Assembly: GCF_009914755.1 (NCBI RefSeq)
Contig: NC_060925.1
Source: the human T2T-CHM13v2.0 reference genome, Homo sapiens
Reading direction: 5' to 3' (one strand)
Length of the DNA stretch: 64,000 nucleotides
Shown here: positions 48,847-49,380 of the stretch, one piece after another
Position numbering within the stretch: position 1 is the stretch's first letter
Layout of the letters: the number at the start of each line of letters is the position of its first letter
Made by a program: the position numbers and the translations under genes
The notes under the pieces: model-generated
What the model saw: only the letters and a program-made list of their open reading frames with translations
What the model was told of the DNA's origin: nothing
The model's database searches: none

Positions 48847-49380
48847 CTACCCTGTGAGGACGACCACGAAGTCCATGACCTTCCAGCCGTTCCGCAGGTA
48901 AGAGCCCTTGTGGAAGACAAAGCCCAGAGCGATGATTTTGATCCCTGCCTCGAAGCAAAAGATCCCGATGAAATAGGGCTCCGTGTCGTCCAGCCGCTCG
49001 GACATGGGCGTTTTGTCCCCATCAGGGAGGTGCTGCTCCAGGGCCAGCACGATGCAGTTGGCGATGATGGTGGCCAGGATCATATACTCGAATGGAGGCC
49101 ACTCGGTGATGCGCTTCGCGTATTTGCGGACGACGTTGTCCTCGCTGAAGACGAAGAGCGAGCGGTTGACGGTGAAGCAGTTCTGCTTGACCGGGATGGG
49201 GTTGTACAGCGCCATGGTCCGCGCGCGCTGCGCGATCGATTGCTTGTAGAGGACCCGCTGGCCGGGCTGCAGCCCCCCGGGACCCGGGCCCCCCGCCCCG
49301 CCGGCCCCGCCGCCCCGGGCCCGCTCTCCGCCGCCGGGGCCCCCATAGCGGCCGCCCAGCTCGTCCCCGAAGCGGACCAT
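48847..49380 (-). CDS. CACNA1B: Intact 177-aa ORF: CaV2.2 alpha-1B N-terminus plus domain I S1-S3 (retrocopy; translation unproven)
   Basis: [14 protein letters not shown]...[32 protein letters not shown]...[22 protein letters not shown]...[18 protein letters not shown]; native Kozak GGAGCCATGG; TAG supplied by the retained intron. Confidence 0.6.

What the first reader, a model, noticed from the sequence alone, without database searches (positions are those of the whole stretch)
48847..49380. Intact ORF for a truncated CaV2.2 (N-terminus plus three TM helices): candidate channel regulator
Seen: uninterrupted 177-aa ORF with the native strong Kozak, stopped by a TAG within the retained donor; residues 45-55 [11 protein letters not shown], including R52/R54, are intact. 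Established: truncated CaV2 constructs containing the N-terminus and domain I can dominantly suppress full-length CaV2 channels, and this N-terminal RAR motif is needed for that effect and for G-beta-gamma modulation. Inference: if transcribed without downstream splicing, the RNA has no exon junction to trigger EJC-dependent NMD (although its 3' UTR is very long) and could yield a membrane-tethered N-terminal fragment. The parental intron-3-terminated isoform would encode the same product.
Basis: partly seen in the sequence, partly recalled or inferred. Interest (0 to 1): 0.72.

Follow-up and report, generated by a model that had tools for sequence, protein, structure and literature searches.

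The report
Young partial CACNA1B retrocopy, ORF intact
The open reading frame is real, but it is the front end of a recent reverse-transcribed copy of the N-type calcium-channel gene, too young to have decayed, and nothing in the sequence shows that it is expressed or regulates channels.

Summary
The 177-codon ORF (window 48847-49380, minus strand) exists as described. It is 176 of 177 residues identical to human CaV2.2 residues 1-177; the one change is N167K. It is the 5' end of a 9.5-kb L1-type retrocopy of CACNA1B (window 49537-39995, minus strand).

- Structure: exons 1-3 are joined exactly. About 8.8 kb of intron-3-derived sequence follows, then a 23-A tail.
- Insertion: there is a 12-bp target-site duplication. 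A 99%-identical paralogous chr1 segment holds the empty site.
- Copy number: it is the only such copy in this genome.

The copy differs from the chr9 parent at 58 of 8,825 aligned bases (0.66%). At that age a neutral copy keeps this ORF in about 80% of simulations, so intactness says nothing about selection. The coding changes are 1 nonsynonymous and 0 synonymous, and the change hits a conserved S3 asparagine. The TATA-like parental core promoter was not copied, and RefSeq annotates no gene here.

Only two complete membrane helices are encoded; S3 is a 13-residue stub. A CACNA1B retroCNV absent from hg19 was reported in 2013 and is probably this insertion. Published work does support the dominant-negative premise, but only for over-expressed constructs. 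Its relevance here is untested and, in my estimate, unlikely (about 5%).

The parts
48847..49380 (-). 177-codon ORF plus TAG: CaV2.2 residues 1-177 with N167K
   Evidence: ORF list. 176 of 177 residues identical to 7mix_A residues 1-177. Pfam Ion_trans on residues 95-176, profile positions 2-78 of 241.
49097..49537 (-). Exon-1-derived part: 157-nt 5'UTR plus 284 nt of CDS. It is a CpG island (GC 0.76, CpG observed/expected 1.02).
   Evidence: Matches C9:150142921-150143361. Two real differences, at 49489 and 49447, both in the 5'UTR. CpG statistics.
48991..49096 (-). Exon-2-derived part, 106 nt, no difference from the parent
   Evidence: C9:150144198-150144303, 100% identity. The junction with exon 1 removes an AT-AC (U12-type) intron exactly.
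48851..48990 (-). Exon-3-derived part, 140 nt, with one difference (48880, N167K)
   Evidence: C9:150147888-150148027. GT-AG intron 2 is removed exactly.
40013..48850 (-). Retained intron-3-derived sequence, about 8.8 kb in the copy and about 8.3 kb in the parent. It would be the 3'UTR of the ORF.
   Evidence: Collinear with C9:150148028-150156370 at about 99%. Includes a 59-bp VNTR at 42090-42769.
39995..40017 (-). Poly(A) tail of 23 A. The parent has 5 A at this place.
49538..49549 (-). 5' copy of the target-site duplication, AAGGACAAGGCC
   Evidence: The empty site holds a single copy at C1:146779705-146779716.
39985..39996 (-). 3' copy of the target-site duplication. Its first two A merge with the tail.

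Best explanation
The ORF is the intact 5' end of a young, single-copy, L1-mediated partial retrocopy (processed pseudogene) of CACNA1B.

The template was an RNA that started at or near the CACNA1B transcription start. Its introns 1 (U12-type) and 2 had been spliced out, but intron 3 had not. It was cleaved and polyadenylated about 8.3 kb into intron 3.

L1 machinery inserted the copy into one copy of a chr1q21 segmental duplication, roughly half a human-chimpanzee distance ago.

The frame is open because too little time has passed for it to break, not because it is maintained. Most likely the locus makes no protein of consequence. If any RNA arises, it carries an 8.8-kb 3'UTR and an upstream out-of-frame ATG.

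Shown: the structure, origin, uniqueness and divergence. Inferred: the age and the lack of function.
For: - Introns. The exons match chr9 CACNA1B exon by exon, with introns 1 and 2 missing to the base, followed by collinear intron 3.
- Insertion hallmarks. There is a 23-A tail where the parent has 5 A, and a 12-bp duplication AAGGACAAGGCC on both sides. The site is cut after T (CTGT|AAGG).
- Empty site. It lies in the 99%-identical paralogue, C1:146778684-146783711. Flank divergence is 15 of 2,527 bases.
- Uniqueness. A whole-genome search with 1,141 bases gave 9 matches: the locus itself, 3 parental exons, 4 exon matches on chr19 and chr1:180.8 Mb at 74-89% identity (by recall, the places of the paralogues CACNA1A and CACNA1E), and 1 weak match. 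There was no second retrocopy.
- Divergence. 58 of 8,825 aligned bases differ (0.66%). In the CDS this is 1 nonsynonymous and 0 synonymous change.
- Chance. A neutral simulation keeps the ORF in 0.797 of 20,000 runs.
- The changed residue. N167 sits in the motif (W/F)-N-x-x-D-F, which all four CaV2.2 repeats keep.
- Promoter. The parent has TTATAGGG about 22-25 nt upstream of the first copied base, so the core promoter was not copied. The flank upstream of the copy has GC 0.34-0.38 and is CpG-poor.
- Annotation. The hub's RefSeq table has no gene or functional element on 39985-49549.
- Print. Schrider et al. 2013 list a CACNA1B retroCNV. It was absent from hg19 and absent at the syntenic chimpanzee site. 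Heterozygotes could not be told from homozygotes, and PCR gave many products. That is what an insertion in a segmental duplication would give (PMC3554589, passages and sections 6, 18, 20, 21).
Against: - The copy keeps a 443-bp CpG island (65 CpG, observed/expected 1.02) and the whole 5'UTR. By chance, the insertion site supplies TATAATAT 17-24 nt upstream of the first copied base. A fortuitous promoter therefore cannot be excluded.
- CpG decay in the exon-derived part is low: 1 CpG transition among about 82 CpG, where about 2.7 are expected from the intronic rate of 7 in about 203. The difference is not significant (Poisson P of about 0.25, my arithmetic), so an unmethylated island is allowed.
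- All sequence requirements published for suppression (a free, complete N terminus, R52 and R54, a membrane anchor) are present.
- I had no RNA, methylation or population data. Absence of expression is therefore inferred, not shown.
Confidence: 0.85

Rival explanations
1. The retrocopy is transcribed from its retained CpG island or a fortuitous promoter and translated into a 177-residue, membrane-anchored CaV2.2 N-terminal fragment. That fragment binds nascent CaV2 channels through the R52/R54 motif and lowers their expression, as a dominant negative acting through misfolding, ER-associated degradation and the unfolded protein response.
For: - The N terminus is intact, with MVRFGDEL, the glycine-rich stretch, [11 protein letters not shown] and two full helices as an anchor.
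- Page et al. (PMC2801285) report three relevant results. N terminus + S1-S4 cut currents to 13% of control. N terminus-CAAX gave 70% inhibition, also in DRG neurons. R52A/R54A abolished the effect.
- The CpG island is retained, with a TATA-like flank.
- The Kozak context is strong.
Against: - There is no evidence of transcription, and no RefSeq model (hub table).
- The parental core promoter is missing.
- The 3'UTR would be 8.8 kb, there is an out-of-frame upstream ATG, and the poly(A) site is weak.
- ORF integrity is uninformative. The changes are 1 nonsynonymous and 0 synonymous, at a conserved residue.
- S3 is cut, so the product would be a misfolded stub. A fragment of this length has not been tested.
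- The published effects used over-expressed constructs. An N-terminal fragment lacking residues 1-45 had no effect on its own and even relieved suppression (PMC4940211, abstract and section 3.4). The sign of any effect is therefore uncertain.
Confidence: 0.05
2. The locus is transcribed but acts, if at all, as RNA or DNA. It could be a CpG-island-driven non-coding transcript, possibly spliced from the intact exon-3 donor into downstream minus-strand exons towards NBPF20. Or it could be an orphan CpG island with regulatory activity in the 1q21 duplication.
For: - The CpG island is retained.
- The exon-3 donor ACAGG|GTAGGC is intact.
- The NBPF20 first exon lies 19.5 kb downstream on the same strand (hub table).
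- By recall, young retrocopies are often transcribed at low level.
Against: No RefSeq transcript or functional element covers 39985-49549 (hub table). Nothing in the sequence requires this reading.
Confidence: 0.1
3. It is not a retrocopy. It is a DNA-level segmental duplication of the CACNA1B 5' end, or an assembly artefact.
For: It lies in a region dense with segmental duplications.
Against: - Two introns are removed to the base.
- It has a poly(A) tail and a target-site duplication, with a precise empty site in the paralogue.
- A CACNA1B retroCNV was detected independently in short-read data of other people (PMC3554589).
Confidence: 0.01

Closest known systems
CACNA1B retroCNV of Schrider et al. 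2013 (PLoS Genet 9:e1003242, PMC3554589)
   Same: It is a retrocopy of CACNA1B that was absent from the hg19 reference and derived relative to chimpanzee. It was hard to genotype (heterozygotes versus homozygotes) and hard to amplify specifically. An insertion with a 99%-identical empty paralogue would behave that way.
   Different: The insertion coordinates are in their Table S2, which I could not open. Identity of the two is therefore probable, not shown. The paper says nothing about the ORF, the retained intron or a channel function. It calls the copy polymorphic, whereas 0.66% divergence would be old for a neutral polymorphism.
Truncated CaV2.2 constructs of the Dolphin laboratory (Dom I, Dom I-4TMs residues 1-225, N terminus 1-95-CAAX; PMC2801285)
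   Same: Same N terminus, with the extreme N-terminal motif and R52/R54, attached to a membrane anchor.
   Different: Those are engineered, over-expressed rabbit cDNAs. The natural ORF ends at residue 177 inside S3, carries N167K, and has no demonstrated expression. A fragment of this length was not tested.
Episodic ataxia type 2 truncations of CaV2.1
   Same: They are naturally occurring truncated CaV2 alpha-1 proteins with an intact N terminus that suppress the full-length channel (PMC2801285 discussion; PMC4940211 abstract).
   Different: Those are alleles of the channel gene itself, expressed from its own promoter in the right cells. This is an unlinked copy without that promoter.
retroCHMP3 (truncated retrocopies acting as altered dominant negatives; bioRxiv 10.1101/2020.08.30.273656, seen only as a search listing)
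   Same: The concept is the same: a truncated retrocopy of a gene whose fragment interferes with the parental pathway.
   Different: There, function and selection were shown experimentally. Here neither is.

Membership tests
L1-mediated processed retrocopy (processed pseudogene / retroCNV) | Introns removed exactly at exon junctions | tested here: met
   Intron 1 (ATATCCT...TCCTTAAC...AC) and intron 2 (GTGAGT...TAG) are absent to the base. Intron 3 is retained.
L1-mediated processed retrocopy (processed pseudogene / retroCNV) | Non-templated poly(A) tail at the 3' end | tested here: met
   23 A in the copy against 5 A in the parent.
L1-mediated processed retrocopy (processed pseudogene / retroCNV) | Target-site duplication and a precise empty site | tested here: met
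   AAGGACAAGGCC at 49538-49549 and 39985-39996. It occurs once at C1:146779705-146779716.
L1-mediated processed retrocopy (processed pseudogene / retroCNV) | Located away from the parent gene | tested here: met
   Parent on contig 9, copy on contig 1.
Functional retrogene | Open reading frame kept longer than neutral decay allows | tested here: not met
   80% of neutral simulations keep the frame at this divergence.
Functional retrogene | Purifying selection (fewer nonsynonymous than synonymous changes per site) | tested here: inconclusive
   1 nonsynonymous and 0 synonymous change in 531 nt. Of the possible single substitutions, 1,153 are nonsynonymous, 393 synonymous and 47 create a stop.
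Functional retrogene | Own promoter and transcription | not testable with these tools
   The core promoter was not copied. The CpG island is retained. RefSeq has no model (hub table). No expression or methylation data were available.
Dominant-negative truncated CaV2 fragment | Free, complete N terminus with R52 and R54 | tested here: met
   Residues 1-95 are identical to human CaV2.2. The requirement is stated in PMC2801285.
Dominant-negative truncated CaV2 fragment | Membrane attachment (domain I helices or CAAX) | tested here: met
   Two hydrophobic helices at about 97-116 and 136-156. The third is only a 13-residue stub.
Dominant-negative truncated CaV2 fragment | Suppresses full-length channel current or protein when co-expressed | not testable with these tools
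   Needs electrophysiology. No published construct ends at residue 177.
Voltage-gated calcium channel alpha-1 subunit | Four Ion_trans repeats with pore | tested here: not met
   Only profile positions 2-78 of 241 of one repeat are present.

The most novel reading that the evidence does not exclude
A human-lineage-specific retrogene in the 1q21 duplication block, and/or the parental intron-3-polyadenylated CACNA1B isoform that it fossilises, makes a membrane-anchored 177-residue CaV2.2 N-terminal fragment. That fragment tunes down CaV2.1, 2.2 and 2.3 channel expression in human neurons or germ cells through the R52/R54-dependent quality-control interaction.
Probability: 0.05. Interest if true: 0.8.

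Novelty: new member of a known kind. Interest (0 to 1): 0.3.

Why it matters
As it stands, this is an ordinary young processed pseudogene.

Two things make it slightly more than that. First, the copy is physical proof that a CACNA1B RNA once existed in the germ line or early embryo with exons 1-3 spliced and cleavage and polyadenylation about 8.3 kb into intron 3. That RNA, from the parent gene, would encode the same N-terminal fragment. Second, over-expression experiments show that this kind of fragment suppresses CaV2 channels.

If either the copy or the parental short isoform were expressed in neurons, it would be an endogenous brake on N-, P/Q- and R-type channels. For the copy, it would also be a human-lineage-specific brake located in the disease-associated 1q21 region. 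This can be tested cheaply with existing long-read RNA and methylation data mapped to T2T-CHM13.

Tried and rejected
- Segmental duplication or assembly artefact: rejected.
- A second copy in the paralogous chr1 duplications: none. Five paralogous flank sets lack the insert (C1:142.75, 146.48, 146.53, 146.78 and 147.74 Mb). The whole-genome search found only one non-parental copy of these exons.
- CpG-decay test for germ-line methylation of the copied island: inconclusive. In the exon-derived part, the copy lost 1 CpG by transition and the parent 0, out of about 82 CpG. In the intron, the copy lost 7 and the parent 8, out of about 203.
- Canonical poly(A) signal in the parent: no AATAAA or ATTAAA in the 40 nt before the site. 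There is ATTTAA 16 nt upstream and a TGTGTTTTC element just downstream. It is a weak but plausible site. Priming on the internal A5 run cannot be excluded.
- Literature on a CACNA1B retrocopy or pseudogene: searches found only Schrider et al. 2013. One search matched 644 papers at 2 of 6 terms, and I saw only the 25 listed. The other hits were irrelevant.
- Literature on an intronic-polyadenylation isoform of CACNA1B: 0 papers. The 8 papers concern other matters, judged from the search listing only; I opened one of them.
- Earlier findings of this scan: not open.
- Not attempted: structure or complex prediction. Neither would bear on expression, and the fragment is 176 of 177 identical to solved structures.
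- Not determined: the family name of the old repeat that hosts the insertion. No repeat library was available.

Full report
**Observation**

The ORF listing under the standard code, with ATG starts, gives a 177-codon frame at window 48847..49380 on the minus strand, ending in TAG (sequence).
- The start context is GAGCCATGG.
- Residues 45-55 are [11 protein letters not shown], with R52 and R54.
- Against solved structures, the protein aligns end to end with residues 1-177 of human CaV2.2 (7mix chain A, E = 4.8e-142). It is identical at 176 of 177 positions; the exception is K167 for N.
- Pfam sees Ion_trans only on residues 95-176, profile positions 2-78 of 241.

- The ORF is on the minus strand.
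- An out-of-frame ATG sits 22 nt upstream at 49402 and opens a 126-codon overlapping frame.
- The fragment has two complete hydrophobic helices (about 97-116 and 136-156) plus a 13-residue stub of S3, not three helices.

**What it is**

A search of the window's own genome with 1,141 bases around the ORF gave 9 matches:
- the locus itself;
- three collinear pieces on contig 9, at 150142918-150143361, 150144197-150144304 and 150147887-150148474, all at 99-100% identity;
- four exon matches on contig 19 and at contig 1:180.8 Mb at 74-89% identity (by recall, the places of the paralogues CACNA1A and CACNA1E);
- one weak match.

A 14.5-kb query showed that the contig 9 match continues without interruption for 8.3 kb beyond exon 3, to C9:150156370.

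The parental junctions read as follows.
- Exon 1 ends GTGGCC and is followed by ATATCCT. That intron ends TCCTTAAC...AC, so it is an AT-AC, U12-type intron.
- Exon 2 is followed by GTGAGT, and exon 3 is preceded by TAG.
- In the window the three exons abut exactly.
- Exon 3 runs straight into its own intron (ACAGG|GTAGGC), which supplies the TAG.

At the far end the window has 23 A where the parent has CGCAAAAACC. The 12-mer AAGGACAAGGCC flanks the insert on both sides, at 49538-49549 and 39985-39996. It occurs once at C1:146779705-146779716, in a paralogous segment whose flanks differ from the window at 15 of 2,527 bases.

This is therefore an L1-type retrocopy, window 49537 to 39995 on the minus strand. 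It was inserted after the chr1 duplication, and it is the only such copy in this genome. The other paralogous flank sets, at C1:142.75, 146.48, 146.53 and 147.74 Mb, also lack it.

**The template RNA**

The first copied base corresponds to C9:150142921, which is 22-25 nt downstream of a TTATAGGG element in the parent. By recall of the usual TATA-to-start spacing, this fits a full-length copy from a real transcription start. It also means the core promoter was left behind.

The 3' end has no AATAAA or ATTAAA. It does have ATTTAA 16 nt upstream of the cleavage point and TGTGTTTTC just downstream in the parent. That makes it a weak but plausible intronic poly(A) site. Priming on the internal A5 run of an unfinished pre-mRNA cannot be excluded.

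Either way, the copy records a CACNA1B RNA with exons 1-3 spliced and intron 3 unspliced. The parental sequence is identical from 48879 to 48817. Such an RNA from the parent would therefore encode the same 177 residues, with N167.

**Age and selection**

I aligned the copy to the parent segment by segment, leaving out a 59-bp VNTR.
- 58 of 8,825 positions differ (0.66%). One of these, 49538, really belongs to the target-site duplication.
- There are 5 gap openings.
- In the exon-derived 689 bases there are two 5'UTR changes (49489, 49447) and one coding change (48880, AAC to AAG, N167K).
- There are no synonymous changes.

That is about half the commonly quoted human-chimpanzee distance (recalled), so the insertion is probably of the order of 2-4 million years old. 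This is an inference, and CpG-rich DNA evolves faster.

A simulation that mutates the ORF at the per-lineage substitution and indel rates keeps an intact frame in 0.797 of 20,000 runs. Intactness therefore carries no information about selection.

The asparagine changed to lysine is kept in the (W/F)-N-x-x-D-F motif of all four repeats of CaV2.2, as seen in the internal alignments. The one coding change is thus a non-conservative hit on a conserved site. That fits relaxed constraint, although this residue is irrelevant to the N-terminal mechanism.

**Promoter and RNA fate**

The copy retains a 443-bp CpG island (GC 0.76, 65 CpG, observed/expected 1.02). The upstream flank is AT-rich (GC 0.34-0.38, 0-5 CpG). 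It consists of an old interspersed repeat with an Alu. By chance it has TATAATAT 17-24 nt upstream of the first copied base.

I tried to read germ-line methylation from CpG decay.
- In the exon-derived part, the copy lost 1 CpG by transition and the parent 0, out of about 82.
- In the intron, the copy lost 7 and the parent 8, out of about 203.
- From the intronic rate about 2.7 losses are expected in the copied island. One observed loss is not significantly fewer, so the test is inconclusive.

The RefSeq table supplied by the hub lists no gene, pseudogene or functional element over 39985-49549. Any transcript ending at the copied poly(A) site would have an 8.8-kb 3'UTR. The exon-3 donor is intact and could instead splice into downstream sequence. 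NBPF20's first exon lies 19.5 kb further along the same strand (hub table).

A stop codon inside a retained donor is generic. GTAAGT, GTGAGT and GTAGGC all read as a stop in one frame.

**The functional premise**

I read the abstract and sections 7, 14, 17, 21 and 22 of Page et al. (PMC2801285). They used rabbit CaV2.2 constructs in oocytes, tsA-201 cells and DRG neurons.
- Domain I alone suppressed currents by about 90%.
- N terminus + S1-S4 (residues 1-225) cut currents to 13% of control, even with all helix charges removed.
- The free N terminus (residues 1-95) reduced currents by 40%.
- N terminus-CAAX reduced them by 70%.
- Deleting residues 2-42, or the R52A/R54A mutation, abolished the effect.

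There are limits. No construct ending at residue 177 was tested, and all the effects come from over-expression. Dahimene et al. (PMC4940211; abstract and sections 3.1 and 3.4) add a further caution. An N-terminal fragment lacking the first 45 residues has no effect alone and relieves suppression by a truncated channel. The direction of an effect therefore depends on the details.

**Prior description**

Schrider et al. 2013 (PMC3554589) list CACNA1B among 39 retroCNVs with located insertion sites.
- It was among the copies absent from the reference.
- Heterozygotes could not be told from homozygotes.
- PCR gave many products.
- The syntenic chimpanzee site lacked a retrocopy.
- It is not among the four retroCNVs with chimeric expression in lymphoblast RNA-seq (section 8).

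All of this fits an insertion that has a 99%-identical empty paralogue. However, the coordinates are in Table S2, which I could not open, so identity is probable only.

Five further searches found no other description of a CACNA1B retrocopy. One search listed 25 of 644 papers. One search found no paper on intronic polyadenylation of CACNA1B.

**Verdict**

The sequence feature is real and correctly read as a retrocopy ORF. The structure is an ordinary young partial retrocopy, and its open frame is expected by chance. The regulatory function is a reasonable hypothesis that is cheap to test and rests on good published biochemistry. No evidence from this locus supports it, and several features count against it:
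- the core promoter was not copied;
- the 3'UTR would be very long;
- there is an upstream out-of-frame ATG;
- S3 is cut;
- the only coding change is a hit on a conserved residue.

I put the probability of a channel-regulating protein at about 5%.

Noticed in passing
window 42090-42769 (minus-strand intron-3-derived part); parent L010:4586-4793 = C9:150154086-150154293: A 59-bp VNTR has 11.5 copies in the retrocopy and 3.5 copies in the parental intron of the same genome (98% and 97% matches). It has expanded or contracted by 8 units since the copy was made.
   Followed up: partly
parent locus L009, C9:150143362-150144197 (CACNA1B intron 1): Intron 1 of CACNA1B is an AT-AC, U12-type intron (ATATCCT...TCCTTAAC...AC). 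It was spliced out of the template RNA while the U2-type intron 3 was not. CACNA1B is listed among minor-intron genes in PMC6558932 (passage).
   Followed up: partly
window 49022-49402, minus strand: An out-of-frame upstream ATG (GGGGATGC) lies 22 nt before the main start. It opens a 126-codon frame that overlaps the main ORF. No copy-versus-parent difference falls in this stretch, so it is inherited from the CACNA1B 5'UTR.
   Followed up: partly
window 49554-49561, minus strand: The AT-rich insertion site places TATAATAT 17-24 nt upstream of the first copied base, next to the copied CpG island. This is a possible fortuitous core promoter and is untested.
   Followed up: no
window 36000-39984 and 49550-50500: The flanks belong to a chr1q21 segmental duplication with at least five paralogous copies in this genome, at 81-99% identity: C1:142.75, 146.48, 146.53, 146.78 and 147.74 Mb. 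The insertion interrupted an old interspersed repeat of about 750 bp that also holds an Alu at about 49858-50150.
   Followed up: partly
window 46640-46880, minus strand: There is a CT-rich low-complexity tract (several short TRF arrays) inside the intron-3-derived part. It is shared with the parent.
   Followed up: no
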